From Candidatus Zhuqueibacterota bacterium (GTDB taxonomy: Bacteria; Zhuqueibacterota; Zhuqueibacteria; Thermofontimicrobiales; Thermofontimicrobiaceae), in NCBI GenBank assembly GCA_034506395.1, contig JAPDPQ010000001.1, positions 4,435-68,434 on the forward strand: 64,000 nt of DNA. Direction: 5' to 3'. Shown piece by piece: positions 2,156-39,681 of the stretch; the stretch's first letter is position 1, and every line of letters starts with the position of its first letter. The position numbers and the translations under genes were made by a program. The notes under the pieces are model-generated. The model did not search any database. It saw only the letters and a program-made list of their open reading frames with translations, and was not told where the DNA came from.

Positions 2156-2294
2156 CTGTTCTAATATGCGTCCCAGCAGCTACGGACCAATCATTTTTTC
2201 GAGTGAAACTTAGCTCTCGAGATTGAGCATCAACAAAATATGTCTTGTTTTTTTCATGAAAATTTCTATATTTCCGTTAACAAAAAACGGAAAT

Positions 2295-2870
2295 ATGGAT
2301 ATGGAATTGACAGAACAAGAATTGATCCGTCGTGCAAAGCAAGGAGATCGGGCAGCTCAGGCTAAAATTGTAAAAGACCATGAGAAAATGGTCTATAATT
2401 TGGGTCTAAAATTATTGGGCAACCCTGACCAAGCAGAGGGCGTTTTGCAAGAGACCTTCCTCAAGGTATTGCAAGCGCTTCCCAAATTCGAGGAAAAATC
2501 TCAGCTCTCGACTTGGATCTATCGCATCGCGACCAATCAGGCGCTCATGCGATTGCGTTCTCGCAAACGTCGTTTTATTTCAATTGAGGAAAATCCAGAA
2601 TTTGAGGATAAAGATTACACGACCTTCGCTCAATCGTTGGATGCAACCCCACTGGATGACGTGCTGAATCAGGAATTGCGAGAAAAGATGGATCGAGCGA
2701 TTGAGCAATTGCCAGATAATTATAAAACAGTGTTCGTGATGAAGGATATCGAAGGGATGGCATTGAAGGAAATTGCAGAAATTTTAGACCTGTCTTTGCC
2801 TGCAGTCAAATCCAATCTGCACCGCGCCAGAGTTACTCTTCGAAATAAATTGGCTGAAATGTGGAACTGA
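2295..2870 (+). CDS. RNA polymerase ECF-type sigma-70 factor
   Basis: Region-2 motifs (VYNLGLKLLGNPDQAEGVLQETFLKV...STWIYRIATNQALMRLR) and a region-4 helix-turn-helix (ALKEIAEILDLSLPAVKSNLHRAR). The start is taken at ATG 2295 (MDMELTEQ); the track ORF begins further upstream at 2223. Confidence 0.8.
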   Translation: MDMELTEQELIRRAKQGDRAAQAKIVKDHEKMVYNLGLKLLGNPDQAEGVLQETFLKVLQALPKFEEKSQLSTWIYRIATNQALMRLRSRKRRFISIEENPEFEDKDYTTFAQSLDATPLDDVLNQELREKMDRAIEQLPDNYKTVFVMKDIEGMALKEIAEILDLSLPAVKSNLHRARVTLRNKLAEMWN

Positions 2871-2880
2871 GGAATTTGCG

Positions 2881-3114
2881 ATGGAATGTTTTGAGTCTCT
2901 GGAAAAAATTTGTGAAGCGCTTGGAGAAGATATCGATAGCCCAATGTGCAAAGAGGTTGAGGAGCATTTGCGCAATTGCCCCCGCTGTTGCGCCCACGTC
3001 GATTCGGTCCGCAAGGTCGTTCGGCTTTATCGACAGATTGGCGATGCGGAGGTGCCTGTAGCCGTGGACGAACGATTGTGGAAAGTGCTCAATCTTTCAA
3101 AGCCACAAGACTGA
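2881..3114 (+). CDS. Anti-sigma factor, zinc-finger (zf-HC2/ChrR-like)
   Basis: 77 aa starting 10 nt after the sigma-factor stop; carries a HLRNCPRCCAH (H-x3-C-x2-C) motif typical of zinc anti-sigma factors. Confidence 0.65.
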   Translation: MECFESLEKICEALGEDIDSPMCKEVEEHLRNCPRCCAHVDSVRKVVRLYRQIGDAEVPVAVDERLWKVLNLSKPQD

Positions 3115-3469: not shown

Positions 3470-4876
3470 ATGAGCACCCAGCCGGGAATTAAAATCCGAA
3501 AAATTGCTATCGGCGCCGACCATGCGGGATTTGAGCTCAAGGAGAAGCTCAAAAAATATCTTGCTGATCGAGGGCATCATCTTTTTGATTGTGGAACTTT
3601 CAGCACCGAATCCGTGGATTATCCGAAGATCGCCTTTCAGGTTGCACAATTGGTGAGCAGAGGCGAATATGAATTGGGAATCATGATCGACGGTGCGGGG
3701 ATTGGTTCGGCGATGGCAGCCAATAAGGTCCCCGGTATTCGAGCGGCTCTCTGTTACGATCTTTCGACCGCACGCAATAGTCGCGAGCACAACAACGCCA
3801 ATGTCCTCACTCTGGGGGGTGGGCTGATCGGTTTTGAATTGGCCAAACAGATCGTCGATACCTGGCTGGCATCAGAGTGCACAGTCGATCGACACCTGCG
3901 CCGAGTACAGATGATCCATGACATCGAACAAGGAAAATTCACTGTGAATCAGATAACGATGCCTCCAGGTCCCTCATCTGGGTTGGCAATTTCCGAGGAA
4001 GACGTTAAGAAAATCGTTTCGAGAGTCCAAACTTTATTACAGCAGCAGATGGGAACTGGTGCGATGTGGACATCCGCTAGTTGTCAAAATCCCACATGCA
4101 ATTCGTGCGGCCAATGTGCGAATAAGGCCCCTGATGCCGTTCGTCAATTTATTTCCATTGGTGCTGCGCGCATCTCTAATGCTCCAGGTGGCATCGGTGC
4201 CCCGCAGGACATCGCCAAATTTATTGACCACACGCTGCTCAAGCCAGAAGCTACGATTTCGGATATCGAACGGGTTTGTCAGGAGGCAGTGAAATATCAA
4301 TTTGCAGCGGTGTGTATTAATCCCTGCTATGTGAAATTGGCGCATGAATTGACACGTGGATCCAATGTAAAAGTTTGTAGCGTGGTTGGGTTTCCGCTCG
4401 GGGCAAGCATCACCGAGATTAAAGCCCTGGAGGCTCGGCGAGCGATTCGCGACGGGGCGAAGGAGATCGATATGGTAATCAACATCGGTGCACTCAAAAG
4501 CGACAATGATGAATTGGTGTTTCGGGACATCCGGACTGTGGTGGATGCTTGTGTGGATGGAAGCGCAATCTGCAAGGTTATCATTGAAGCAGCGCTCTTG
4601 ACCGATGAAGAGAAAGTGAGGGCGTGCGAGCTGGCAAAGCGGGCGCGAGCCCATTATGTGAAAACGTCGACGGGATTCGGCCCCGGCGGTGCGACTGCGC
4701 ATGACGTCGCGCTGATGCGACAGGTGGTGAGCGGCACACGAATGGGCGTGAAGGCTGCGGGCGGCATCCGATCGCTGGCAGACGCACAAAAGATGATCGA
4801 AGCGGGGGCCACTCGGATCGGCGCCAGCGCTGGCGTGAAAATCGTCCAAGAAGCAGCAAAGGTGGCAAATCCCTGA
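3470..4876 (+). CDS. Bifunctional fusion: RpiB/LacAB-family sugar-phosphate isomerase (N-terminal) and deoxyribose-phosphate aldolase DeoC (C-terminal)
   Basis: The N-terminal ~150 aa match the RpiB fold ([14 protein letters not shown]...[25 protein letters not shown]...[13 protein letters not shown]). The C-terminal ~230 aa are DERA ([12 protein letters not shown]...[10 protein letters not shown]...[15 protein letters not shown]...[10 protein letters not shown]), including the Schiff-base lysine motif VKTSTGF. A ~80 aa linker contains a C-x4-C-x2-C-x2-C cluster. Confidence 0.85.
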
Positions 4877-5063: not shown

Positions 5064-5693
5064 GTGGTTGACCTACGCGCTTATGTCTTTTTGGACAATC
5101 TTCAGCCGCAATACGCCGCCTTTTTGGGCACGGTGGCACAAGGGTTCCTGCCAATCGCCCACATGGCGTCGCTTTATGTCGAGATCTCCCCAGGGATCGA
5201 AATCAATCGTATCACGGATATCGCTTTGAAATCGACTCGGGTAACGCCGGGGATGCAAATTGTGGAACGCCTTTATGGTTTGCTTGAGATCCATTCTGAG
5301 TCTCAGGCGGACGTTCGGCAGGCTGGTCAGGCGATTTTGGACGCGTTGGGTTTAAAGGAAGAAGATCGCTGGAAGCCGAAGATTTACTCCAGCCAGGTGA
5401 TCCGACGAATTGATGACCATCAGACGCAATTGATTAATCGCATGCGCCACGGCAACATGATCATTCCGGGCCAGACATTGTATGTGATGGAAGTTGCCCC
5501 GGCAGCTTATGCCGCACTGGCAGCGAACGAAGCGGAAAAGGCCGCCGAAATTAATATCCTAGAGGTTCGAGCTTTTGGCAGTTTTGGACGCGTTTATCTG
5601 GGAGGAGAGGAACGCGATATCGACGTGGGGTGGCGCGCGGCTGTTCATGCCATTGAAAGCGTCACTGGCAAAATGTTTGAAGGAGCGTCTTAG
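5064..5693 (+). CDS. Divergent tandem BMC-domain shell protein, probably permuted BMC-T (EutL/PduB-like)
   Basis: 209 aa made of two ~100-aa halves. The second half ([30 protein letters not shown]...[24 protein letters not shown]) resembles BMC-domain and EutL patterns (..ADEATKQAMVEVV.. / ..[27 protein letters not shown]). It sits immediately upstream of the other shell genes. Assignment is by pattern recall only. Confidence 0.5.
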
Positions 5694-6062: not shown

Positions 6063-6383
6063 ATGGCCGAAGCTTTAGGAATGATTGAATGTCGTAGTTT
6101 TCCAGCAATGGTGGAAGCTGCAGATGCCATGGTTAAGGCTGCCAAGGTTGAGTTGGTCAGTTACGAGAAAACTGGGGGAGGATACGTCACTGCGATCATC
6201 CGTGGGGATGTTGCTGCGGTAAAGGCCGCTTGCGAAGCTGGACAAGCTGGTGCCGCCAAAGTGGGTGAGGTCGTTGCCGTGCATATTATCGCTCGGCCGC
6301 ACAGCAATGTGGACCTGGTATTGCCATTGGGCAGAAAGGAACAGGTAGCCGCAGAGCTGAAGAAAACCAAGCGCGATGAATAA
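6063..6383 (+). CDS. BMC shell protein, hexamer-forming BMC-H (PduA/EutM/CcmK family, Pfam00936)
   Basis: Canonical [54 protein letters not shown]...VHIIARPH; GGAGGAAT RBS 6 nt upstream. Confidence 0.92.
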
Positions 6384-6612: not shown

Positions 6613-6912
6613 ATGGTATTAGCCAAAGTAATTGGGACCGTGGTCGCCACGCGAAAAGAAAAGAGCATGGAAGGGCTCAAATTCCTGCTTTTGCGACAGG
6701 TCGACCTCGATGGCAACGAGATTGGGGGTCATATCGTTGCTGCTGATGCTGTTGGTGCAGGTCTGGGCGAAATGGTGCTTTATGCCACTGGTAGCTCGGC
6801 TCGACAAACCGTAATGACTGATAAGCGGCCTTGCGATGCGGTCATTATGGCCATTGTGGATAACTGGGAAGTGAACGGACAGATCAAATACAAAAAAGGA
6901 CAACATGATTGA
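6613..6912 (+). CDS. BMC vertex protein BMC-P (EutN/CcmL/PduN family, Pfam03319), copy 1
   Basis: [17 protein letters not shown]...[32 protein letters not shown] is the classic EutN/CcmL pattern. Confidence 0.9.
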
Positions 6913-7027: not shown

Positions 7028-7594
7028 TTGGATCGACCTTTTTTAATCGGCAAAAAGATCTATCTCCGACCAGTAGAGCCTGAGGATGCGGCATTTCTCG
7101 CTCGGGGGGAAAATCACCCAGCGGTGCGCGAGGCGTTATTTCTGGCATTCCCCGTGAGTATGGGAACTGAGCTGGAGAAGATCGAGCAATTCATCAAATC
7201 CAAAGAAGCAATTGTGCTGATCATTGTAGACCAGCAGACGAATCAACCAGTCGGCCAGACCGCATTCTTTCGCATCGATTTCGTCAGCCGAGCGGCCGTT
7301 TTTTATCTGGCAATCCTCGATCCGAGCCATTGGTCGAAGGGGTATGGCTCGGAGGCCACACAACTCATGGTTGATTACGCATTCGAGACGCTCAATCTCA
7401 ATCGCATCCAGCTTCATGTCTGCGCCGAAAATACCCCTGCCATTCGGATTTATGAGCGCGCTGGATTCAAAAAAGAGGGAGTTTTACGACAGGCTATGTT
7501 TCGCAACGGGGCTTATGTGGATTTCTGGGTGATGGGCATCTTGCGGAGCGATTGGTCGGTGCGATCTCAAAATAGCCAAGTCTTTTCGGCATAA
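7028..7594 (+). CDS. GNAT family N-acetyltransferase
   Basis: RimL/RimJ-like pattern (...QPVGQTAFFRIDF...WSKGYGSEATQLMVDYAFETLNLNRIQLHVCAENTPAIRIYERAGFKKEG); embedded between a BMC-P gene and the aldehyde dehydrogenase. Confidence 0.75.
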   Translation: MDRPFLIGKKIYLRPVEPEDAAFLARGENHPAVREALFLAFPVSMGTELEKIEQFIKSKEAIVLIIVDQQTNQPVGQTAFFRIDFVSRAAVFYLAILDPSHWSKGYGSEATQLMVDYAFETLNLNRIQLHVCAENTPAIRIYERAGFKKEGVLRQAMFRNGAYVDFWVMGILRSDWSVRSQNSQVFSA

Positions 7595-7741: not shown

Positions 7742-9187
7742 TTGTCTTTCCTTGGTGAAAATCAGATCGAAACGATCGCCCAAAAAATTGTGGAGATCAT
7801 TATTGGCAAGAGCTCAGTGCCGGACGCGGGTATAAGGAGTAGCTCGGTCTTTCGTTCAGGCTGGTTGGGGATTTTCCCCACCATCGATGAAGCCGTGACC
7901 GCGACTTCGATCGCTCAGCGGCAATTGACCAGCATGACGCTCCGAAAGCGAGATGAGATCATCGCCAGTATCCGAGCCATGATGCTGGAACATGCGCGGG
8001 AGTTGGCCGAATTCGCCGTTGCAGAGACAGGGTTGGGCCGCGTCGAAGATAAGATTGCCAAAAATAAATTGGTGAGCGAGAAGACGCCTGGGACAGAAGA
8101 TCTCTATCCGATTGCCCGATCTGGAGACCACGGGCTAAGCTTGTTCGAGCCAGCGCCTTATGGCGTTATTGGCGCCATCACGCCAATTACCAACCCCACT
8201 TCTACGATCATCTGCAACACGATCGGAATGGTTGCAGCGGGCAACGGGGTGGTTTTCAACGTTCATCCTGGGGCAAAAAACACCTCAATCCAAAATATCC
8301 ATTTAATAAACCAGGCTATTATCCAAGCTGGTGGGCCCGTGAATTTGGTCAGTGGCATAACCGAGCCAACAATTGCAACGGCACAGCAATTGATGCGCCA
8401 TCCTGGGATACGAATTTTGGTCATCACAGGCGGAGGTGCTGTGGTCCGAGAAGCGATGAACAGTGGCAAGCGAGCCATTTGCGCTGGGCCCGGCAATCCA
8501 CCTGTGGTAGTTGATGAAACCGCTGATTTGGAGCGCGCTGGCGAGTTCATCGTGAAAGGCGCATCGTTCGACAATAACATCATCTGTGTGGATGAAAAGG
8601 AACTCATCGTGGTTGAGGCAGTGGCAGACCAATTGCTCAGGATCATGCAGAACAAAGGGGCGATCTTGCTAAAACCCCAGCTTCTCCCCCAGCTCGAGCA
8701 ATTATTGTTCGAGAAAACGAACGGGCCGGCCAAGCCAGGGATGATAAATAAAAGCTTGATCGGCAAAAATGCCAATTTGATCCTCTCGAAATTGGGGCTA
8801 TCGGTCGATGATCGGATTCGATTGGCCGTCATCGAGGTCGATCGCACCCATCCGCTGGTCTGGACCGAACAGATGATGCCAATTTTGCCGATGGTGCGGG
8901 TGGCGAATGCGGATGAGGCAATCGATTTGGCAAAACAGGTAGAAGGTGGAAATTATCATACTGCGGTTATGTATTCCCGAAATCTGGACAATCTCAGCCG
9001 GATGGCCCGGGAAATTAACACGACAATTTTTGTGAAAAACGGTCCCGCCTATGCTGGATTAGGATTTGGCGGCGAGGGATACACTTCTTTTTCTATCGCC
9101 AGCCCAACGGGAGAGGGCTTAACAGGTCCGCGCAGTTTCTCAAGAGAGCGGCGTTGCGTGTTGGTAGATCATTTTCGGATCGTTTAA
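7742..9187 (+). CDS. CoA-acylating aldehyde dehydrogenase (EutE/PduP family) with N-terminal encapsulation-peptide-like extension
   Basis: 481 aa, TTG start after GGAGCGAA. EutE/PduP-type motifs (...GNGVVFNVHPGAKNTS..., ...RAICAGPGNPPVVVDETAD..., ...SFDNNIICVDEKELIV...). The N-terminal ~20 aa (ENQIETIAQKIVEIIIGK) form an amphipathic helix typical of BMC encapsulation peptides. Confidence 0.9.
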   Translation: MSFLGENQIETIAQKIVEIIIGKSSVPDAGIRSSSVFRSGWLGIFPTIDEAVTATSIAQRQLTSMTLRKRDEIIASIRAMMLEHARELAEFAVAETGLGRVEDKIAKNKLVSEKTPGTEDLYPIARSGDHGLSLFEPAPYGVIGAITPITNPTSTIICNTIGMVAAGNGVVFNVHPGAKNTSIQNIHLINQAIIQAGGPVNLVSGITEPTIATAQQLMRHPGIRILVITGGGAVVREAMNSGKRAICAGPGNPPVVVDETADLERAGEFIVKGASFDNNIICVDEKELIVVEAVADQLLRIMQNKGAILLKPQLLPQLEQLLFEKTNGPAKPGMINKSLIGKNANLILSKLGLSVDDRIRLAVIEVDRTHPLVWTEQMMPILPMVRVANADEAIDLAKQVEGGNYHTAVMYSRNLDNLSRMAREINTTIFVKNGPAYAGLGFGGEGYTSFSIASPTGEGLTGPRSFSRERRCVLVDHFRIV

Positions 9188-9188
9188 T

Positions 9189-9812
9189 ATGAAACTATAC
9201 CCTGCAATTGCGCTGATCGAGTTTAGTAGCATTGCCACCGGAGTAATTGCTGGCGATGCGATGATCAAAAGAGCGCCGATTTCCATGTTAAAGGCTGGCA
9301 CGGTCAGCCGAGGAAAATATCTGGTGATGATTGCTGGTAGCACAGCAGCGGTCGAGGAATCTTATCGGGCTGGTCTAAGCGTCGGCGAAGCTGCGGTCAT
9401 CGATAAGGTTTTTCTGCCTGATGTGCATCCGCAGGTGCTCGACGCTATCCTTGGAGCAAGAAAAAAAATCAGCTCCGAGGCACTCGGGCTGATCGAAACC
9501 GCATCTATTGCCGCGACGATCGCCGCCGCTGATGCTGGCATCAAAGGGGCGATGGTCGATATCATCGAAATTCGGCTGGGCGACGCATTGGGCGGCAAGG
9601 CATTTGTGATGATGAACGGAACAGTCCACGACGTCACCGCTGCAGTTACCATTGGGCTGAAAGCGATCTCCAATGAAGCGCTTTGGCGCAATCATATCAT
9701 CATCCCATCGTTGCATCACGAAATGGCCCGTCAGATCGACCGTTCGAGCCGATTTGCCCTGGTAGAATATCAAAAATTAGCTGGAGACGAGAGCGAACAT
9801 GTTACTGGGTAA
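9189..9812 (+). CDS. Tandem BMC-domain shell protein BMC-T (PduT-like)
   Basis: Two canonical BMC domains (ALIEFSSIATGVIAGDAMIKRAPI... and LGLIETASIAATIAAADAGIKGAMVDIIEIRL...); starts 2 nt after the aldehyde dehydrogenase stop. Confidence 0.85.
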   Translation: MKLYPAIALIEFSSIATGVIAGDAMIKRAPISMLKAGTVSRGKYLVMIAGSTAAVEESYRAGLSVGEAAVIDKVFLPDVHPQVLDAILGARKKISSEALGLIETASIAATIAAADAGIKGAMVDIIEIRLGDALGGKAFVMMNGTVHDVTAAVTIGLKAISNEALWRNHIIIPSLHHEMARQIDRSSRFALVEYQKLAGDESEHVTG

Positions 9813-10089
9813 AGTGATCGGCACTGTTACGCCCTGCGTGGTTTACCCCGGACTCGAAGGCGTTCCGCTTCTGCTGGTTCAGCCGCTGAGTAAAAACTCC
9901 AAAGCGGTCGGCAAGCCCATTGTCGCCTGCGATGCCACCCGAATGGCTGGTCCAGGAGAACTGATCTATTACGAGGGCGGCCGCGAGGCAGCGCTGGCAT
10001 TAGATCCCTGGTTCGTCCCAGTGGATCACACCATCATTGGCATTGTGGATGGCGTCCATCTAATCGATGAAAGCTCTCAGTCCGAGTGA
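9799..10089 (+). CDS. BMC vertex protein BMC-P (EutN/CcmL family), copy 2
   Basis: MLLGKVIGTVTPCVVYPGLEGVPLLLVQPL...GKPIVACDATRMAGPGELIYYEGGREAA; overlaps the BMC-T stop by 14 nt, suggesting translational coupling. Confidence 0.85.
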   Translation: MLLGKVIGTVTPCVVYPGLEGVPLLLVQPLSKNSKAVGKPIVACDATRMAGPGELIYYEGGREAALALDPWFVPVDHTIIGIVDGVHLIDESSQSE

Positions 10090-10319: not shown

Positions 10320-10592
10320 GTGATTATCGGCAAAGTCGCTGGAGAAATCTACTCCACGATCAACCACAGTTTCTATGATCAAAAAAAACTGCTGATCGTG
10401 GACAAATTGGACCTAACTGGAACGCCCACAGGCGACTATTTGATCGCAGTAGATTCCGTCGATGCTGGGCTCGGTGAAACGGTATTGGTCATTGATGAAG
10501 GCAATTCGGCCCGACAGGTAGTAAGCGATCCCAATGCGCCAATCCGCTCAATCATTATCGGGATCATCGATGCCGTGCGCATTGAGAGGTGA
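10320..10592 (+). CDS. BMC vertex protein BMC-P (EutN/CcmL family), copy 3
   Basis: GTG start preceded by GGAGAAAAAG; MIIGKVAGEIYSTINHSFYDQKKLLIVDKLDL...YLIAVDSVDAGLGETVLVIDEGNSAR. Confidence 0.8.
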   Translation: MIIGKVAGEIYSTINHSFYDQKKLLIVDKLDLTGTPTGDYLIAVDSVDAGLGETVLVIDEGNSARQVVSDPNAPIRSIIIGIIDAVRIER

Positions 10593-10840: not shown

Positions 10841-11527
10841 ATGGCGAATGAATGGCAATTGCGACGGGAGATCGTCGCGATTGGCAAAAAGGCTTACGAA
10901 CGCGGGCTGGTGACGGCCACAGATGGGAATATCAGCGTGCGAGTCATGGGAGATCGTTTTCTGATCACACCGAGCGGCAGTTGCCTCGGAGAATTGGCAC
11001 CCGAACAATTGGTTTATGTCGATTTTGAAGGCAAGACATTATCTGGCGGTAAGCCAACTGGAGAGCTGGCCATGCACCTGGCTGCTTATCGAGAGCGGCC
11101 AGACATCCATGCCGTCTTGCATGCACACCCACCAATTACCACGGGCTTTACCATCGCTGGCGAATCACTGGCGCAATGCGTCATCCCCGAGGTTGTGGTG
11201 ATCTTCGGGACCATCCCTACTACGGAATATGCCACTATTTCAACTGAAGAGGGTGCCAAAGTCATTCGGGAATTGATCCGCGACCATGATGCTTTGATAT
11301 TGGATCGGCATGGGACAATTACAGTGGGAAAAACCCTCATCGACGCATATCGCAAACTCGAGAAGGTCGAATATGCCGCCCAGGTCACCCTGGTTGCCAA
11401 ACAATTGGGCAAAGTGAAAACCTTATCGCGTGAACAAATTCAAAAATTGGAAGCCGTCAGGCAAAAATATGGCTATCAGGGCCGAAAATCGCTATGCGAG
11501 GCATGTGGCCTCTGCAATATTTCATGA
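10841..11527 (+). CDS. Class II aldolase/adducin-domain protein (L-fuculose-/L-ribulose-phosphate aldolase-like) with C-terminal extension
   Basis: LVTATDGNISVRV...FLITPSG...GKPTGELAMHLAAYRERPDIHAVLHAHPP...LDRHGTITVGKTLIDAYRKLEKVEYAAQ. The last ~30 aa (TLSREQIQKLEAVRQKYG...CEACGLCNIS) extend beyond the ~200-aa aldolase fold. Confidence 0.85.
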   Translation: MANEWQLRREIVAIGKKAYERGLVTATDGNISVRVMGDRFLITPSGSCLGELAPEQLVYVDFEGKTLSGGKPTGELAMHLAAYRERPDIHAVLHAHPPITTGFTIAGESLAQCVIPEVVVIFGTIPTTEYATISTEEGAKVIRELIRDHDALILDRHGTITVGKTLIDAYRKLEKVEYAAQVTLVAKQLGKVKTLSREQIQKLEAVRQKYGYQGRKSLCEACGLCNIS

Positions 11528-11694: not shown

Positions 11695-12588
11695 ATGAAG
11701 GAGAACAAATTTTTGACTGCAAATCAGCAAGAACCGATCCAATCCACATACGACTGTATCCCCTGTGCTATCGGGAGCCTGATCACTCTATTTAAAAAAG
11801 GACTGGTTTCAGAAAGGGATCAGGAAATCGCCATGCGAGCATTATTGCGTTATCTCAGCACCATTGATTTCCATCAATCCCCTCCCCAAATCGGTCAACA
11901 GATGCAACGGATCATTCGACACGTGCTCAATAATCCTGATCCGTATTTAGAAATCAAACAGCAATTCAATCGCTTGCTTCTCGATCATTACGTTGAATTA
12001 AAAGCATGGGTGGACCAGGCGGCAGATCCATTTCAGATGGCATTGCGATTGTCCATCGCTGGAAACGTGATCGATTTCGGTCCGAATCAACGCTTTGATG
12101 TCCACCAAACATTGGAACGGGCAAAGACTATTGTCCTGGCGATCGATGATTCAGAGCCTTTGCGCCAGGCCATCTCGAAAGCAACGCTACTTCTCTATTT
12201 GGGAGATAATGCTGGCGAAATCGTGTTGGATCGTATTTTCCTGGAAACGATTAACCATCCCAATGTCTATTTTGCTGTTCGCAGTGCGCCCATCATCAAT
12301 GACGCATTGCTGGAAGACGCAATCATGGTAGGAATCGACAAAATTGCCCATGTCATCACCAATGGGGATGATGCGCCTGGGACAATCTTAGAGAACACCT
12401 CAGCCCAATTTAAGACAATTTTTGACCAAGCGGATCTGATCATTTCAAAAGGCCAGGGCAATTATGAGGGTCTTAGCTGCGTTGATAAAAATATCTTCTT
12501 TTTGCTAATGACCAAATGCGAGCATGTCGCTAATCATCTTGGAGTAAAAAAAGGTGATTTTGTGGTGAAACAAGGACAAGGTTGTTGA
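11695..12588 (+). CDS. DUF89 family protein (ARMT1-like damage-control/sugar-phosphate phosphatase)
   Basis: 297 aa; pattern ...LLYLGDNAGEIVLDRIF...ISKGQGNYEGLS... recalls the DUF89 metal-dependent phosphatase family. Recognition from memory, moderate. Confidence 0.55.
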   Translation: MKENKFLTANQQEPIQSTYDCIPCAIGSLITLFKKGLVSERDQEIAMRALLRYLSTIDFHQSPPQIGQQMQRIIRHVLNNPDPYLEIKQQFNRLLLDHYVELKAWVDQAADPFQMALRLSIAGNVIDFGPNQRFDVHQTLERAKTIVLAIDDSEPLRQAISKATLLLYLGDNAGEIVLDRIFLETINHPNVYFAVRSAPIINDALLEDAIMVGIDKIAHVITNGDDAPGTILENTSAQFKTIFDQADLIISKGQGNYEGLSCVDKNIFFLLMTKCEHVANHLGVKKGDFVVKQGQGC

Positions 12589-36933: not shown

Positions 36934-38229
36934 TTAGTGAATGGAGCCCAATATCAATCTTGGGACCTGACATGGTGCTTCATCAATTTCAATTGCCGAT
37001 CGTAAAGCGTGTTCAATTTGCTCAGCATTCATCACTTTTGAGTGATAGATTTCAGCCAAAGGCTCACCGCGTTCCACGCGATCACCGACTTTATGGCACA
37101 AAACGATCCCCGCGGTGGGATCAATGGGATCTCCAATTTTTGCCCGACCAGCGCCGAGTTCCATGGACAACAAGCCGATCTTCAGCGCATTTATCTCGTG
37201 AACATAACCTGATTTGGTGCTGAGCACGGTTTCATGATATTGGCTGAAGGGATATCGAGCAGGATTTTCAACGACTGAAATATCACCTCCCTGGGCAGTT
37301 ACCATCTCAATAAATTTATTATAGGCAGCTCCATTGGCTAATAAAAATTGCAATTGATCAGAATGATGAATTGGCTTTCCCGCCAATCGCAGCATCTCTG
37401 CCGTGAGCGCCAAAGTAATTTCAACTAAGTCATTTGGGCCACCACCATGCAATGTATCAATTGCTTCTTTAACCTCCAGCCAATTCCCAACCGCATAACC
37501 TAAAGGCTGATCCATGGCCGTCATCATGGCCGTAGTGGGCAGGCCGAAGCTTTTTGCAATCGAGATGAATGTCTCGGCTAATTGGTTCGCTCGGTCAAAT
37601 GAGCTAAAAAATGCTCCACGACCAGTTTTAACATCCAACACCAGGGCCTTTGCACCTTCTGCGATCTTTTTGCTCAATATGCTGGCAACAACTAAAGGGA
37701 TCGATGGCACAGTTCCTGTGCGATCGCGTAACGCATAAATCTTTTTGTCCGCCGGGACAATCTCATCGGTTTGCCCAATCATGGCAAGGCCGATTTTTTC
37801 AACTTGTTGAACGAACTCTGTCAAGCTCAACTGGGTTCGAAAGCCGGGGATCGATTCTAATTTGTCCAATGTCCCACCAGAATGGCCCAATCCACGACCA
37901 GACATCATGGGAACTGCTACCCCTGCCGCGGCGGCCAATGGGGCCAAGACCAATGACACCTTATCACCGACCCCTCCAGTGCTGTGCTTATCGACAGGCA
38001 TCCGATCTAAATGGCTGAAGTCTACCGTCCGGCCCGATTGAACCATGAGCTTGGTCAATGCTTGAGTCTCTTCTATGCTCATGCCCTGAAAATAAATGGC
38101 CATCAATAAAGCGGCCATTTGGTAGTCTGGGACCAAACCAGCGACATAGCCATCGATTATTGATTTCAACTCTGCCTCTGAAAGGTGAGATCCGTCTCGC
38201 TTTTTCACAATCAATTGTTCAATATTCAT
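36934..38229 (-). CDS. Thymidine/pyrimidine-nucleoside phosphorylase
   Basis: MNIEQLIVKKRDG..LS..ELK.II.GY..G...DYQMAALLMAIYF.GM...E..ALT.LM..SG...D...VDKHSTGGVGDKVSL; C-terminal domain ...LGAGR..IGD.IDP.AGI.L.KVGD.V..GEPLA.I.. Start taken at internal MNIEQ. Confidence 0.9.
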   Translation of the reverse strand: MNIEQLIVKKRDGSHLSEAELKSIIDGYVAGLVPDYQMAALLMAIYFQGMSIEETQALTKLMVQSGRTVDFSHLDRMPVDKHSTGGVGDKVSLVLAPLAAAAGVAVPMMSGRGLGHSGGTLDKLESIPGFRTQLSLTEFVQQVEKIGLAMIGQTDEIVPADKKIYALRDRTGTVPSIPLVVASILSKKIAEGAKALVLDVKTGRGAFFSSFDRANQLAETFISIAKSFGLPTTAMMTAMDQPLGYAVGNWLEVKEAIDTLHGGGPNDLVEITLALTAEMLRLAGKPIHHSDQLQFLLANGAAYNKFIEMVTAQGGDISVVENPARYPFSQYHETVLSTKSGYVHEINALKIGLLSMELGAGRAKIGDPIDPTAGIVLCHKVGDRVERGEPLAEIYHSKVMNAEQIEHALRSAIEIDEAPCQVPRLILGSIH

Positions 38230-38319
38230 CGTTCCTCTTCCTTTTTCCAAAAAACAAAGAAGCAATCAAACAACGATTGCTTCTTTAATTTTGTTTTCAT
38301 TCTATAGCTCTATTTCGTG

Positions 38320-39681
38320 TCAACTAAGAGCGCTCAATTGCTTAATCTCCTCAACAAATTGATAAGCCAGTGCATTGGCTTGGTCCATGGTTTTCGCCTC
38401 AGCGTAGATTCGGATAATTGGCTCTGTATTGGACGGTCGAATTTGCACCCAGCGATCGGGCCATAGGATCTTCAAACCGTCCGTCAGATCGAGACGCTGG
38501 TTATTGTATTTATTGGTCATCGTCTTCAATAACTCGCCAATATTCACATCGGCCAATTCAATGCGACTCTTAGCGATCACATATTGCGGCAAAGATCGTT
38601 GCAATTCGCCAATAGAGCCCCCAAATTCAGCCAATTGCTGCAAAGTTAAGGCAATTCCCACTGGTGCATCTCGGCCTAAATGAAGCTCCGGCAAGATAAC
38701 TCCTCCGTTTCCTTCCCCACCGATCACCGCCTTCACTTCCTTCATCTTTTTTGCGACATGAATTTCCCCAACTTTGGTTCGAAACACCTCAGCGCCATAT
38801 TTGGCAGCAATTTCGTCGATCGCCTGGGTGACCGAGACATTGACCGCCACTGGCCCGTGTCTTTTTTGAAGCACATAATTCACAGCTAACGCCAAAGTAT
38901 ACTCCTCGCCCAGGGGATTGCCGTGCTCATCGACAATGGCGAGCCGATCGACATCCGGATCCACTGCAAAGCCCAGATCGGCACCAGTGCGCTTCACTGT
39001 CTGGCATAATTCTTTGAGATTCTCTGGCAATGGTTCTGGTGGATGCGAAAATAACCCAGTTGGATCCTCATTGATAAATATCACATCGCATCCCAGGCGT
39101 TGCAATAATTGGGGTAAAATGGTCCCACCTGCTCCATTCACACAATCTACGACAACCCTAAATTTCCGGGCAGCTATCTTCTCTGGTGAAATCAAATCTA
39201 ATCGCAAAATGGCATCGATATGATGCCGAATAGCGGTGTTATTAAGTTCGATCTTTCCAATTTGATCCCAAGGGACAAAGCGAAATTCTGCTTCGTCGGC
39301 AAGCTGAATGACTTTCTTGCCTTGTATCTCATCGAGGAACATGCCAGAGGCATCGATCAATTTCAACGCGTTCCATTCGATTGGATTATGGCTGGCTGTG
39401 ATGGCAATGCCTCCACGCGCCTTAAAATGCTCCACCGCCAATTCTACCGTTGGCGTTGGGCAAATGCCGATATCAATTACATCGCATCCCATGGCCGTCA
39501 GGCCAGAGAGCACCGCATGCTTGACCATGGGTCCAGTGATTCGGGAGTCTCTTCCTACCACCACCTTTCCTCCACCCAAATAAGCCCCGAATGCCTGGGC
39601 GTATCGGAGGACCACCTCTGGGGTTAACCCATCTCCAACCACGCCTCTTATTCCCGAGATGCTAACCATTAATTTCGCCAC
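38320..39681 (-). CDS. Phosphoglucomutase/phosphomannomutase-family alpha-D-phosphohexomutase (phosphopentomutase candidate)
   Basis: SISGIRGVVG, GIAITASHNP (phosphoserine loop), FAVDPDVDRLAIVDEHG (metal-binding loop), GGEGNGGVILPE (sugar loop); 90 nt downstream of the nucleoside phosphorylase on the same strand. Confidence 0.8.
   Translation of the reverse strand: MAKLMVSISGIRGVVGDGLTPEVVLRYAQAFGAYLGGGKVVVGRDSRITGPMVKHAVLSGLTAMGCDVIDIGICPTPTVELAVEHFKARGGIAITASHNPIEWNALKLIDASGMFLDEIQGKKVIQLADEAEFRFVPWDQIGKIELNNTAIRHHIDAILRLDLISPEKIAARKFRVVVDCVNGAGGTILPQLLQRLGCDVIFINEDPTGLFSHPPEPLPENLKELCQTVKRTGADLGFAVDPDVDRLAIVDEHGNPLGEEYTLALAVNYVLQKRHGPVAVNVSVTQAIDEIAAKYGAEVFRTKVGEIHVAKKMKEVKAVIGGEGNGGVILPELHLGRDAPVGIALTLQQLAEFGGSIGELQRSLPQYVIAKSRIELADVNIGELLKTMTNKYNNQRLDLTDGLKILWPDRWVQIRPSNTEPIIRIYAEAKTMDQANALAYQFVEEIKQLSALS

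What the first reader, a model, noticed from the sequence alone, without database searches (positions are those of the whole stretch)
3470..4876. Single-polypeptide fusion of RpiB-family isomerase and DeoC with a cysteine-rich linker
The two signature enzymes of this BMC type are covalently fused: RpiB/LacAB fold at about residues 1-150, DERA at about 230-468. The ~80-aa linker carries a C-x4-C-x2-C-x2-C cluster ([12 protein letters not shown]), which could bind a metal or iron-sulfur centre, or act as a redox or structural element. Fusion would enforce 1:1 stoichiometry and co-encapsulation of an isomerase step feeding an aldolase step. The pentose-phosphate substrate logic (RpiB normally acts on ribose-5-phosphate, DeoC on 2-deoxyribose-5-phosphate) is unresolved.
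Basis: seen in the sequence. Interest (0 to 1): 0.7.

Follow-up and report, generated by a model that had tools for sequence, protein, structure and literature searches.

The report
Known RPI–DERA microcompartment fusion enzyme
This gene encodes an already-described fusion of a ribose-phosphate-isomerase-like domain and deoxyribose-phosphate aldolase, the cargo enzyme of a sugar-phosphate bacterial microcompartment. Its "linker" is the aldolase's own packaging extension, and that extension carries a conserved, so far undescribed, ferredoxin-like four-cysteine motif.

Summary
Window 3470-4876 (+) is one uninterrupted 468-aa ORF with an RpiB/LacAB domain (aa 11-154), a DeoC/DERA domain (aa 246-460), and [12 protein letters not shown] at aa 205-216. 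It is not an artefact: the 120 best homologues and the 80 best genome loci are all fused, and an independent assembly holds the identical protein.

The fusion is already published (Axen 2014; Dwyer 2024, SPU3 loci). The "linker" is the N-terminal extension typical of microcompartment DERAs: a spacer, an amphipathic encapsulation-peptide-like helix present in all 121 aligned fusions, the Cys4 knuckle, and a helix-strand unit resembling DERA's own alpha7-beta8.

DERA's catalytic triad is intact. The RPI domain has Asp74 in place of the catalytic Cys and Ala76 in place of Thr, as in the SPU RPI found nearly inactive on ribose-5-phosphate. So "isomerase feeds aldolase" is not supported.

The Cys4 motif is kept or lost as a unit. 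It also occurs on unfused and flavoprotein-fused DERAs and resembles a ferredoxin CxxCxxCxxxCP loop. A related CxxCGxC tail sits on the locus's class II aldolase. Whether it binds metal is untested.

The protein is a new member of a known kind, with one undescribed detail.

The parts
3470..4876 (+). RPI-DERA fusion gene (468 aa), first gene of the microcompartment operon
   Evidence: Uninterrupted ORF. Both domains found. Fused in the 120 best homologues and the 80 best genome loci. Identical protein assembled independently.
3500..3931 (+). RpiB/LacAB-like (SPU-type RPI) domain, aa 11-154. Asp17/His18/His107/Asn108/Arg141/Arg145 are retained. Catalytic Cys66 is replaced by Asp74 and Thr68 by Ala76. 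Cys137 is invariant in ECTVDRH.
   Evidence: Gapless alignment to E. coli RpiB chains 1nn4 and 2vvr. Invariant and near-invariant columns in A1 and A3. pLDDT above 90.
3932..3991 (+). Poorly conserved spacer, aa 155-174
   Evidence: Low column conservation and gaps. pLDDT 40-60 and no secondary structure.
3992..4051 (+). Amphipathic encapsulation-peptide-like helix, aa 175-194 ([20 protein letters not shown])
   Evidence: Consensus S-x2-D-[LIV]-x-K-I-[AV]-x-[RK]-[IV] present in all 121 aligned fusions. AF2 predicts a helix at 176-194. Hydrophobic residues follow an i, i+3, i+4, i+7 pattern and the hydrophobic moment is 0.52. Function as an EP is inferred from PMC11585597, PMC12747264 and PMC4594438.
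4082..4117 (+). Cys4 knuckle C205-x4-C210-x2-C213-x2-C216 ([12 protein letters not shown]), ferredoxin-like loop CxxCGxCxxxAP
   Evidence: All four Cys present in 72, absent in 35, partial in 14 of 121. Invariant in the 72-sequence Cys4 set. Also present on unfused and flavoprotein-fused DERAs. Weak PDB and Pfam matches are mostly ferredoxin-type Fe-S chains. Metal binding was not tested.
4130..4189 (+). Conserved helix-strand unit, aa 221-240 ([20 protein letters not shown]; G231 and R234 invariant), resembling DERA alpha7-beta8 (aa 437-455)
   Evidence: Column conservation. hhalign P 1.5e-5, against 0.057 for the RpiB-domain control. None of 300 column shuffles reaches the observed score. 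The second AF2 run gains confidence here while the C-terminal 452-468 loses it.
4205..4849 (+). DeoC/DERA class I aldolase TIM barrel, aa 246-460, with catalytic Asp334, Schiff-base Lys398 and Lys428
   Evidence: TIGR00126 equivalog at 281 bits. Alignment to E. coli DERA D102/K167/K201. These residues are invariant in A1. 60-64% identity and TM 0.86-0.89 to solved Bacillus-type DERAs.
5064..5693 (+). CsoS1D-like tandem-BMC shell protein (BMC-T, double-stacking type), 209 aa
   Evidence: Weak Pfam BMC hit. Precomputed PF27545 CsoS1D_N on the identical gene and on the ortholog. 67-93% identical in 73 of 80 loci, directly downstream of the fusion.
6063..6383 (+). BMC-H shell protein
   Evidence: Pfam BMC E 5e-29. 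Syntenic in 70 of 80 loci.
6613..6912 (+). BMC-P pentamer protein 1
   Evidence: Pfam EutN_CcmL E 4e-29. Syntenic.
7742..9187 (+). Acylating aldehyde dehydrogenase with an EP-like N-terminus (ENQIETIAQKIVEIII)
   Evidence: Pfam Aldedh. Sequence. Present in 62 of 80 loci.
9189..9812 (+). BMC-T (tandem BMC domains)
   Evidence: Pfam BMC, two stretches. It has no Cys and no CPGK motif.
9799..10089 (+). BMC-P pentamer protein 2
   Evidence: Pfam EutN_CcmL.
10320..10592 (+). BMC-P pentamer protein 3
   Evidence: Pfam EutN_CcmL.
10841..11527 (+). Class II aldolase with a C-terminal helix plus a C219-x2-C222-x2-C225 tail (nt 11495-11515), an accessory second aldehyde-forming cargo enzyme
   Evidence: Pfam Aldolase_II E 8e-50. 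Tail sequence. The gene is present in only 3 of the 80 related loci. A Cx2Cx2C tail occurs in 81 of 120 homologues.
2223..3114 (+). ECF sigma factor (2223-2870) and zinc-finger-type anti-sigma factor (2881-3114) directly upstream, candidate regulators
   Evidence: Pfam Sigma70_r2, r4_2 and ECF. The H-x3-C-x2-C motif is seen in the sequence. The pair is found upstream only in the closest relatives: L001 and L004, L081 and L082. A regulatory role is inferred.

Best explanation
The gene encodes the signature cargo protein of a sugar-phosphate-utilising (SPU, SPU3-like) bacterial microcompartment.

Shown by sequence: the C-terminal DERA barrel is a catalytically complete class I aldolase. [quoted passage not shown]

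The N-terminal RpiB-like domain is the SPU-specific RPI. It has lost the canonical catalytic Cys and Thr but keeps an invariant sugar-phosphate pocket. In unfused systems this RPI forms a 1:1 complex with DERA, so the fusion hard-wires that partnership. It does not create an isomerase-to-aldolase metabolic channel. The RPI domain is probably a structural, ligand-binding or non-canonical partner.

The inter-domain region is DERA's own N-terminal extension. It has four parts: a flexible spacer; an amphipathic helix that most likely acts as an internal encapsulation peptide, so the RPI domain needs none of its own; a Cys4 knuckle with the register of a ferredoxin [4Fe-4S] loop, which most likely binds a structural or assembly-related metal centre (Fe-S somewhat favoured over Zn); and a helix-strand unit that looks like a partial duplication of DERA's last alpha-beta unit.
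For: Domains and catalytic residues. SPU context: the order fusion, CsoS1D-like BMC-T, BMC-H, BMC-P, AldDH, BMC-T, BMC-P, BMC-P recurs in most of 80 loci from more than 15 phylum-level groups. Published facts: the fusion occurs in SPU3 loci, the extension occurs on all SPU DERAs, all SPU RPIs have Cys66->Asp, SPU6 RPI has negligible R5P activity, and DERA and RPI form a 1:1 complex (PMC11585597). EP-dependent recruitment of a Flav+DERA enzyme with an inter-domain EP is reported in PMC12747264. The helix is conserved in all 121 fusions and predicted helical. There is no N-terminal extension before the RPI domain. The Cys4 motif is conserved all-or-none, is present on unfused and Flav-fused DERAs, and has a ferredoxin-like register. 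The resemblance to alpha7-beta8 is supported and is consistent with the shift in AF2 confidence. A possible cytosolic supply route is a pyrimidine-nucleoside phosphorylase next to a PGM-family mutase at 36934-39681. A SorC/DeoR-type regulator lies upstream of the fusion in 11 related loci.
Against: No activity, metal content or encapsulation was measured; all function is inferred. AF2 confidence in the Cys region is low (below 50 with the mixed alignment, 47-70 with the Cys4-only alignment). No ferredoxin match is individually significant (E 0.0095 to 10). The Cys knuckle is replaced or lost in many clades, and the whole module is absent in Verrucomicrobia, so any role is dispensable or substitutable. 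The RPI pocket is invariant, which argues against a purely structural pseudo-enzyme and leaves an unknown catalytic role open. No PduS/MNdh, PTAC or alcohol dehydrogenase is in the window, so cofactor recycling is unexplained. Assignment to subtype SPU3 rests on the published statement that the fusion occurs in SPU3; I could not run the classifier.
Confidence: 0.8

Rival explanations
1. The protein is a true bifunctional metabolic channel. The RpiB-like domain isomerises a pentose or other sugar phosphate whose product is the DERA substrate, and the fusion enforces substrate channelling.
For: The RPI pocket residues Asp17, His18, His107, Asn108, Arg141 and Arg145 are invariant, and Asp74 is nearly invariant and could serve as an alternative base. 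This degree of conservation is atypical for a dead enzyme. M. tuberculosis RpiB uses Glu instead of Cys (cited in PMC11585597). Fusion and gene adjacency suggest a functional link.
Against: Cys66 is replaced by Asp and Thr68 by Ala. SPU6 RPI showed negligible R5P isomerase activity (PMC11585597). By established chemistry, dR5P has no C2 hydroxyl, so no aldose-ketose isomerisation can make or consume it. The same paper notes that no direct pathway links R5P to DERA without a transketolase. RPI is absent from SPU5 and from some SPU4 loci.
Confidence: 0.15
2. The Cys4 knuckle holds a redox-active [4Fe-4S] cluster. It would act as an oxygen or redox sensor, or as an electron relay for the lumen (for example for NADH re-oxidation), rather than as a passive structural metal.
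For: The motif has the ferredoxin register CxxCGxCxxxAP plus an upstream Cys with a variable x3-x9 spacer. A weak Fer4_13/Fer4 hit falls on the motif of P0178. Almost all other C..CG.C matches in the 80 loci lie in true Fe-S proteins. The organism is an anaerobe, judging from its PFL-like glycyl-radical enzyme. The locus lacks PduS and alcohol dehydrogenase, so NADH recycling is unassigned. A related CxxCGxC motif sits on the aldolase tail.
Against: No match is statistically significant. Matches to a CxxCxxC pattern are biased toward ferredoxins, the commonest proteins with that spacing. The motif is lost or replaced in many clades that keep the same operon. No shell protein in this locus has a pore cysteine or CPGK motif to pass electrons. 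The CsoS1D-like BMC-T could exchange NAD(H) directly (inference). DERA chemistry is not redox chemistry.
Confidence: 0.3
3. The locus is essentially a fucose/rhamnose-type (PVM-like) microcompartment whose signature enzyme is the class II aldolase, and the RPI-DERA protein is an accessory.
For: A class II aldolase with an EP-like C-terminal extension lies at 10841-11527. PVM and GRM5 microcompartments use this enzyme family (PMC8217296).
Against: The aldolase is present in only 3 of the 80 related loci, whereas the fusion, shell and AldDH core is constant. No PTAC, acetate kinase, or fucose or rhamnose catabolic genes were found in the window. Dwyer 2024 reports class II aldolase as a low-frequency accessory of some SPU types.
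Confidence: 0.07
4. The apparent fusion is a sequencing or assembly artefact, or a pseudogene joining two adjacent genes.
For: None was found.
Against: The reading frame is continuous. The same architecture occurs in the 120 best homologues and the 80 best genome loci across many phyla. The identical protein was assembled independently. Both domains are under strong purifying selection.
Confidence: 0.01

Closest known systems
SPU3 RPI-DERA chimera of sugar-phosphate-utilising microcompartments (Dwyer et al. 2024, PMC11585597; first noted in Marinimicrobia by Axen et al. 2014, PMC4207490)
   Same: The domain order is the same: N-terminal RpiB-like, C-terminal DERA. There is no N-terminal EP on the RPI. 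An amphipathic helix derived from the DERA extension lies between the domains. The RPI has Asp in place of the catalytic Cys. The gene lies in an operon with AldDH, BMC-H, BMC-T and three BMC-P genes, including a CsoS1D/CcmP-type BMC-T.
   Different: The published representative is verrucomicrobial. The verrucomicrobial fusions in my set lack the Cys knuckle and the helix-strand unit entirely, whereas the window protein has both. The window locus also carries a class II aldolase, a GNAT and an upstream ECF sigma/anti-sigma pair, and it has no PduS homologue within the window.
Stand-alone SPU DERA with an N-terminal extension (for example the SPU6 Chloroflexi DERA characterised by Dwyer et al. 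2024)
   Same: The extension logic is the same: an amphipathic helix followed by a short, poorly modelled element before the barrel. The catalytic triad is the same. Among P0173's 120 best homologues, 40 of the 66 stand-alone DERAs with an extension carry the same C-x(3-9)-C-x2-C-x2-C and G-A-x-R-[IV] module.
   Different: It is a separate polypeptide from the RPI, which then carries its own N-terminal EP, and the helix is at the very N-terminus. No hit of the terms cysteine, Cys, zinc, metal, iron or disulfide in the published main text concerns a cysteine motif in the extension.
Flavoprotein-DERA fusion of Hodarchaeales archaeal microcompartments (2025 preprint, PMC12747264) and its bacterial counterparts
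   Same: The same Cys knuckle and DERA module follows a different N-terminal partner (P0141, P0151, P0155, P0168, P0178). In that preprint, EP-containing enzymes including this fusion were recruited to shells in an EP-dependent manner.
   Different: The N-terminal partner is a PF02441 flavoprotein-like domain, not RpiB. The EP helix is at the extreme N-terminus, and the Cys spacer is x6-x7 rather than x4.
Ferredoxin-type [4Fe-4S] binding loop (C-x2-C-x2-C-x3-C-P; Pfam Fer4 and Fer4_13)
   Same: The register is C-x2-C-G-x-C-A-x2-x-P followed by a short helix. The weak PDB and Pfam matches are mostly ferredoxin-type chains, and those displayed align in this register.
   Different: The fourth Cys of the loop is Ala. 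The candidate fourth ligand lies 3-9 residues upstream. There is no ferredoxin beta-alpha-beta fold context. No hit reaches significance, and cluster binding is untested.
Canonical RpiB (E. coli RpiB/AlsB, C. thermocellum RpiB)
   Same: The fold is the same (TM 0.87-0.89, about 50% identity), and Asp9, His10, His99, Asn100, Arg133 and Arg137 are retained.
   Different: The catalytic Cys66 is Asp and Thr68 is Ala. A new invariant Cys137 lies in ECTVDRH, where canonical enzymes have Y/F-x-G-G-R-H.

Membership tests
DeoC/DERA class I aldolase (EC 4.1.2.4) | TIM-barrel DeoC domain scoring above the equivalog cut-off | tested here: met
   TIGR00126 scores 281 bits against a cut-off of 117. PDB DERA matches at E 1.6e-77. 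Foldseek TM 0.86-0.89.
DeoC/DERA class I aldolase (EC 4.1.2.4) | Catalytic Asp102, Schiff-base Lys167 and Lys201 (E. coli numbering) | tested here: met
   Asp334, Lys398 and Lys428 align to these residues and are invariant in A1.
DeoC/DERA class I aldolase (EC 4.1.2.4) | Cleavage of 2-deoxyribose-5-phosphate | not testable with these tools
   Requires an enzyme assay. The SPU6 homologue is active (PMC11585597).
RpiB ribose-5-phosphate isomerase B | RpiB/LacAB fold and family HMM | tested here: met
   PF02502 E 2.4e-54. TIGR01120 scores 164 bits against a cut-off of 139. TM 0.87-0.89.
RpiB ribose-5-phosphate isomerase B | Catalytic base Cys66 (or the Glu75 equivalent of the M. tuberculosis type) and Thr68/Ser | tested here: not met
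   Asp74 and Ala76 occupy these positions in a gapless alignment to E. coli RpiB, and both are near-invariant in the family. It is therefore an RpiB-fold protein but should not be filed as a canonical R5P isomerase.
RpiB ribose-5-phosphate isomerase B | Phosphate-binding and ring-opening residues (Asp9, His10, His99, Asn100, Arg133, Arg137) | tested here: met
   Asp17, His18, His107, Asn108, Arg141 and Arg145 are invariant.
SPU (sugar-phosphate-utilising) microcompartment locus, SPU3-like | DERA (PF01791) plus RPI (PF02502) encoded with AldDH and BMC-H, BMC-T and BMC-P shell genes | tested here: met
   The synteny recurs in 80 loci.
SPU (sugar-phosphate-utilising) microcompartment locus, SPU3-like | RPI-DERA chimera and a CsoS1D/CcmP-type BMC-T, with a triplet of BMC-P | tested here: met
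   Fusion. PF27545 CsoS1D_N on the 209-aa neighbour. Three EutN_CcmL genes.
SPU (sugar-phosphate-utilising) microcompartment locus, SPU3-like | Formal subtype assignment by shell-protein and locus HMM clustering (BMC Caller) | not testable with these tools
   The classifier is not available here. PduS, reported for all subtypes except SPU6, was not found in the window.
Encapsulation peptide (EP) | A 15-20-residue predicted amphipathic alpha-helix, absent from non-microcompartment homologues and separated from the catalytic domains by poorly conserved linkers | tested here: met
   A helix is predicted at 176-194. It has a heptad-like hydrophobic pattern and is conserved in all 121 fusions. Solved non-microcompartment DERAs start aligning at about aa 238-246. 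It is flanked by the spacer 155-174 and the low-conservation stretch 195-204.
Encapsulation peptide (EP) | Sufficient and necessary for targeting cargo to shells | not testable with these tools
   Requires shell co-expression or pull-down experiments. The precedent for inter-domain EPs is PMC12747264.
[4Fe-4S] ferredoxin-type cluster-binding site | Significant match to Fer4-family models, or the complete C-x2-C-x2-C-x3-C-P motif | tested here: not met
   No Fer4 hit on the window protein at E<=0.1. Homologue P0178 gives only E about 0.1. PDB ferredoxin matches have E 0.0095 to 10. The last Cys of the loop is Ala220. The resemblance stands, but membership is not established.
[4Fe-4S] ferredoxin-type cluster-binding site | Four conserved Cys ligands that co-vary as a unit | tested here: met
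   All four present in 72, none in 35, partial in 14 of 121. C-x(3-9)-C-x2-C-x2-C occurs in 87 of P0173's 120 best DERA homologues, none of them RpiB-fused.
[4Fe-4S] ferredoxin-type cluster-binding site | Bound Fe-S cluster | not testable with these tools
   Requires anaerobic purification and spectroscopy.

The most novel reading that the evidence does not exclude
The C-x(3-9)-C-x2-C-x2-C-x3-A-P knuckle found in the extension of many microcompartment DERAs (unfused, RPI-fused and flavoprotein-fused), together with the C-x2-C-G-x-C tail on microcompartment class II aldolases, binds Fe-S clusters positioned next to the encapsulation helices. Under this reading, the aldehyde-generating cargo enzymes of SPU-type organelles carry a redox- or oxygen-sensitive assembly switch or an electron-transfer element that has not been described.
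Probability: 0.25. Interest if true: 0.65.

Novelty: new member of a known kind. Interest (0 to 1): 0.35.

Why it matters
The headline feature, an RPI-DERA fusion in a microcompartment, is already in the literature, so this window mainly adds one more member, from an uncultured anaerobe.

What could matter to specialists is the anatomy of the so-called linker:
- An internal encapsulation helix is conserved in every fusion.
- A four-cysteine, ferredoxin-like knuckle is kept or lost as a unit. It recurs on stand-alone and flavoprotein-fused DERAs, and a related motif sits on the class II aldolase tail.
- A segment appears to copy DERA's last helix-strand unit.

If the cysteines bind a metal cluster, cargo packaging or activity in one of the most widespread microcompartment types would depend on metal or redox state. 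That would affect heterologous expression and engineering of these organelles. It might also help explain why extension-bearing DERA is insoluble when expressed in E. coli.

The invariant but non-canonical RPI pocket (Asp74, Ala76, Cys137) gives a concrete set of residues for addressing the open question of what the SPU RPI does.

Tried and rejected
1. Structure prediction of the Cys region. AF2 with a mixed 65-sequence alignment gave pLDDT below 50 for aa 195-246. A Cys4-only alignment raised aa 211-250 to 62-70 but not higher, and the tools return no coordinates. Cys-Cys geometry therefore could not be assessed.

2. Solved-structure relatives of the extension. None cover aa 155-245 at significant E-values.

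3. Single-sequence BLASTP of the extension against the DERA C-terminus was not significant (E 0.12), and I first dropped the idea. The profile-profile comparison and shuffles later supported it.

4. Co-variation between the DERA Cys4 motif and the aldolase CxxCxxC tail. The counts were 8 with both, 2 with DERA only, 1 with aldolase only and 2 with neither. I do not claim coupling.

5. Search for redox partners co-varying with the Cys state (PduS/MNdh, Fe-S BMC-T with CPGK). None is conserved in the 80 loci, and the window's shell proteins lack such motifs.

6. PVM (fucose/rhamnose) classification. I considered this after seeing the class II aldolase and rejected it because the aldolase occurs in only 3 of 80 related loci.

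7. Organism identification. Cluster names were uninformative. The source remains an uncultured bacterium whose closest genomic relatives are unclassified or KSB1 MAGs.

8. Supplementary files of Dwyer 2024 are not held. I cannot exclude that a sequence logo there shows the cysteines.
Full report
**Observation**

Window 3470-4876 (+) is a single open reading frame of 468 codons with no internal stop. Pfam places LacAB_rpiB at residues 12-149 (E 2.4e-54) and DeoC at 250-460 (E 6.6e-19). NCBIfam places the deoC equivalog at 281 bits and rpiB at 164 bits, both above their curated cut-offs. The best solved-structure relatives are DERAs (E 1.6e-77, residues 246-460) and RpiBs (E about 5e-41, residues 10-154), and nothing solved covers residues 155-245. 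Two AlphaFold2 models give high confidence for both catalytic domains. Foldseek returns DERA (TM 0.86-0.89, 60-64% identity to Geobacillus and B. halodurans DERA) and RpiB (TM 0.87-0.89). The motif [12 protein letters not shown] occupies residues 205-216, nt 4082-4117.

**Not an artefact**

The 120 best protein homologues all carry both Pfam domains and are 425-523 residues long. The 80 best matches in one-genome-per-species contigs all align across query residues ~1-465. They come from KSB1, Zixibacteria, Calditrichota, Marinimicrobia, Ignavibacteria, Planctomycetota, Acidobacteriota, Krumholzibacteriota, Fibrobacteres, Verrucomicrobiota, Gemmatimonadota, Elusimicrobia and others. The identical protein, in the same gene order, was assembled independently from run SRR27730043.

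**Context**

Downstream on the same strand lie:
- a 209-aa CsoS1D-like tandem-BMC shell protein;
- BMC-H;
- BMC-P;
- a GNAT acetyltransferase;
- an aldehyde dehydrogenase with an EP-like N-terminus;
- a second BMC-T;
- two more BMC-P genes;
- a class II aldolase.

The order fusion, CsoS1D-like BMC-T, BMC-H, BMC-P, AldDH, BMC-T, BMC-P, BMC-P recurs in most of the 80 related loci. The class II aldolase appears in only 3 of them. The GNAT appears in only 1 of the 80 loci (L004) and the ECF sigma/anti-sigma pair in only 2 (L001, L004); both also occur in the two closest look-ups, L081 and L082. This is the sugar-phosphate-utilising (SPU) microcompartment of Axen 2014 and Sutter 2021, not the fucose/rhamnose PVM type. 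Elsewhere in the window, a pyrimidine-nucleoside phosphorylase sits next to a PGM/PMM-family mutase (36934-39681). This pair could supply deoxyribose-5-phosphate from deoxynucleosides; that is an inference. In 11 related loci a SorC/DeoR-type sugar-binding regulator sits directly upstream of the fusion.

**What is already known**

Axen et al. [quoted passage not shown] Dwyer et al. 2024 report the following:
- the chimera occurs in 20 SPU3 loci;
- all SPU RPIs have Asp in place of E. coli Cys66;
- the SPU6 RPI has negligible ribose-5-phosphate isomerase activity;
- separate DERA and RPI form a roughly 1:1 complex.

A 2025 preprint on Hodarchaeales microcompartments describes a flavoprotein-DERA fusion and shows EP-dependent recruitment of enzymes whose EPs lie at the termini or between domains. 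Text searches of these papers found no mention of a cysteine motif in the DERA extension.

**Catalytic residues**

A gapless alignment with E. coli RpiB shows that Asp9, His10, His99, Asn100, Arg133 and Arg137 are retained as Asp17, His18, His107, Asn108, Arg141 and Arg145. Cys66 is replaced by Asp74 and Thr68 by Ala76. These positions are invariant or nearly so across the fused family, and Cys137 in ECTVDRH is additionally invariant. The DERA triad aligns as Asp334, Lys398 and Lys428 and is invariant.

DERA should therefore be active. The RPI domain is an RpiB-fold protein with a conserved sugar-phosphate pocket but without the canonical catalytic pair. By established chemistry, 2-deoxyribose-5-phosphate lacks the C2 hydroxyl needed for an aldose-ketose isomerisation. 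The more likely reading is that the fusion hard-wires a partnership that already exists as a non-covalent complex. The invariant pocket keeps an unknown ligand-binding or catalytic role open.

**Anatomy of the linker**

Column conservation over 121 aligned fusions and the AF2 secondary structure divide residues 155-245 into five parts:
1. A variable spacer, 155-174.
2. An amphipathic helix, 175-194, with consensus S-x2-D-[LIV]-x-K-I-[AV]-x-[RK]-[IV]. It is present in every sequence and meets the published definition of an encapsulation peptide.
3. A variable stretch, 195-204.
4. The Cys4 knuckle, 205-216.
5. A conserved segment, 221-245: P221, V224, R225, invariant G231 and R234, P239-G240-G241, P245.

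The RPI domain starts 10 residues after the initiator Met, so it has no EP of its own. This matches what Dwyer et al. describe for the chimera.

**The cysteine knuckle**

- *Kept or lost as a unit.* All four Cys are present in 72 of 121 sequences, all four absent in 35, and partial in 14.
- *Plastic across the 80 genome loci.*
  - The window clade and KSB1 have C-x4-C-x2-C-x2-C.
  - Calditrichia have CxCC...C-x3-C.
  - Marinimicrobia have C-x5-C-x-C-x2-C plus extra Cys.
  - Krumholzibacteria and Fibrobacteres have H-x-G-P-C-x3-C-P.
  - Zixibacteria and Ignavibacteria have C...C...H-x-G-H.
  - Acidobacteria have no Cys.
  - Verrucomicrobia lack the knuckle and the following segment entirely. 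Verrucomicrobia is the phylum of the published representative, which may explain why the motif went unremarked.
- *Rare and family-specific.* A profile of the linker found only 58 matches at E<=0.001 among 1.84 billion representative proteins.
- *Not tied to the fusion.*
  - Those matches include unfused DERAs with an N-terminal helix, the Cys motif and G-A-x-R-[IV].
  - They also include flavoprotein-DERA fusions with the same motif.
  - Among the 120 best homologues of one unfused DERA (P0173), C-x(3-9)-C-x2-C-x2-C occurs in 40 of 66 stand-alone enzymes with an extension and in 47 of 52 with a long N-terminal domain.
  - The motif therefore belongs to the DERA extension.
- *Ferredoxin-like register.*
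  - The window's [16 protein letters not shown] aligns with Clostridium ferredoxin's sCvsCGaCAseCPvnAi.
  - Nine of the ten weak PDB matches to the 37-residue segment are ferredoxin-type chains, as are 11 of the 16 weak matches to the linker profile.
  - A homologue gives weak Fer4 and Fer4_13 hits.
  - None of these is individually significant, and matches to a CxxCxxC pattern are biased toward ferredoxins.
- *Conclusion.* I regard metal binding as likely. Fe-S is somewhat more likely than Zn. A role in structure or assembly is more likely than a role in catalysis. All of this is untested.

**A parallel on the second aldolase**

The window's class II aldolase ends with an amphipathic helix followed by C219-x2-C222-G-x-C225. 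A C-x2-C-x2-C tail occurs in 81 of its 120 closest homologues, and longer forms add a second EP-like helix after it. Table 2 of Aussignargues et al. 2015 lists 5.5% Cys in the aldolase EP linker, against about 0-1% in the AldDH and CcmN linkers, and none of the passages retrieved describes a motif. In all six frames of the 64-kb window, C..C..C occurs only in these two cargo enzymes and in one spurious antisense ORF. The DERA and aldolase motifs co-occur more often than not, but not strictly: 8 with both, 2 with DERA only, 1 with aldolase only, 2 with neither. I do not claim functional coupling.

**A duplicated barrel element**

The conserved segment 222-240 ([19 protein letters not shown]) aligns with DERA residues 437-455 ([19 protein letters not shown]), which form helix alpha7 and strand beta8. 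The profile-profile comparison gives P 1.5e-5, against 0.057 for the RpiB-domain control. The observed score of 29.3 compares with 10.3 +/- 2.4 for 300 column shuffles, none of which reaches it. In the second AF2 run, confidence rose in this segment and a strand appeared at 235-237, while the C-terminal 452-468 fell below 50. That is consistent with the two elements competing for one site, but no coordinates were available. The simplest reading is that this part of the extension arose by partial duplication of the 3' end of deoC.

**Verdict**

- The fusion is real but already known.
- The linker is the DERA packaging extension.
- An isomerase-to-aldolase channel is unlikely.
- The cysteine cluster is a genuine, conserved but dispensable, ferredoxin-like motif that the searchable literature does not describe.

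I rate the protein a new member of a known kind, with moderate-to-low interest (0.35). The most novel reading still open is that Fe-S clusters sit next to the encapsulation helices of the aldehyde-forming cargo enzymes (probability about 0.25).

Noticed in passing
window 10841-11527 (+), tail at nt 11495-11515: The class II aldolase ends with an amphipathic helix followed by CEACGLC (C-x2-C-G-x-C). A C-x2-C-x2-C tail is present in 81 of its 120 closest homologues. Longer forms add a second EP-like helix after the motif.
   Followed up: yes
window 5064-5693 (+): This 209-aa protein gives only a weak Pfam BMC hit, yet it is among the best conserved genes of the operon (67-93% identity in 73 of 80 loci). 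Precomputed annotation calls it CsoS1D_N (PF27545), a double-stacking BMC-T. It has no cysteines.
   Followed up: partly
window 36934-38265 (-) and 38320-39681 (-): A pyrimidine-nucleoside phosphorylase lies next to a PGM/PMM-family mutase. The pair could act as a deoA plus phosphopentomutase analogue that makes deoxyribose-5-phosphate for the microcompartment DERA.
   Followed up: no
window 2223-2870 and 2881-3114 (+): An ECF sigma factor and a small anti-sigma factor with an H-x3-C-x2-C zinc motif lie directly upstream of the operon. The pair is shared only with the closest relatives (L001, L004, L081, L082). Other clades have a winged-helix (27 loci) or a SorC/DeoR-type (11 loci) regulator there instead.
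   Followed up: partly
window 7028-7594 (+): A GNAT acetyltransferase is inserted between BMC-P and AldDH inside the shell operon. Among the 80 loci it occurs only in L004, directly after the fusion. The closest look-ups L081 and L082 share the window's placement.
   Followed up: no
window 11695-12588 (+): An ARMT1-like/DUF89 damage-control phosphatase lies immediately after the class II aldolase, and an ARMT1-like gene also lies downstream of the aldolase in the syntenic relative L081. It may clean up stray sugar phosphates.
   Followed up: no
window 3470-4876, residue Cys137 (nt 3878-3880): The RPI domain has an invariant Cys in ECTVDRH, one helical turn before the phosphate-binding Arg141. 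Canonical RpiBs have Tyr or Phe at this position. It could be a substitute catalytic or regulatory thiol.
   Followed up: partly
window 49225-51588 (+): A PFL-like glycyl-radical enzyme (787 aa) indicates an anaerobic lifestyle. No activating enzyme was identified among the ORFs scanned.
   Followed up: no
loci L006-L008, L012, L021, L024, L025, L035 (Zixibacteria, Ignavibacteria, Elusimicrobia fusions): In place of the Cys4 knuckle, these carry GGTC...IVC...IIHYGH, a two-Cys plus two-His arrangement. It could be an alternative metal site.
   Followed up: no
P0141, P0151, P0155, P0168, P0178 and many hits: Bacterial proteins of 446-508 aa combine an N-terminal EP-like helix, a flavoprotein-like (PF02441) domain, the Cys knuckle and DERA. 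The 2025 Hodarchaeales preprint calls this architecture uncommon in bacterial microcompartments, yet 52 of P0173's 120 best homologues have a long N-terminal domain before DERA. PF02441 itself is recorded for only a few of them.
   Followed up: partly
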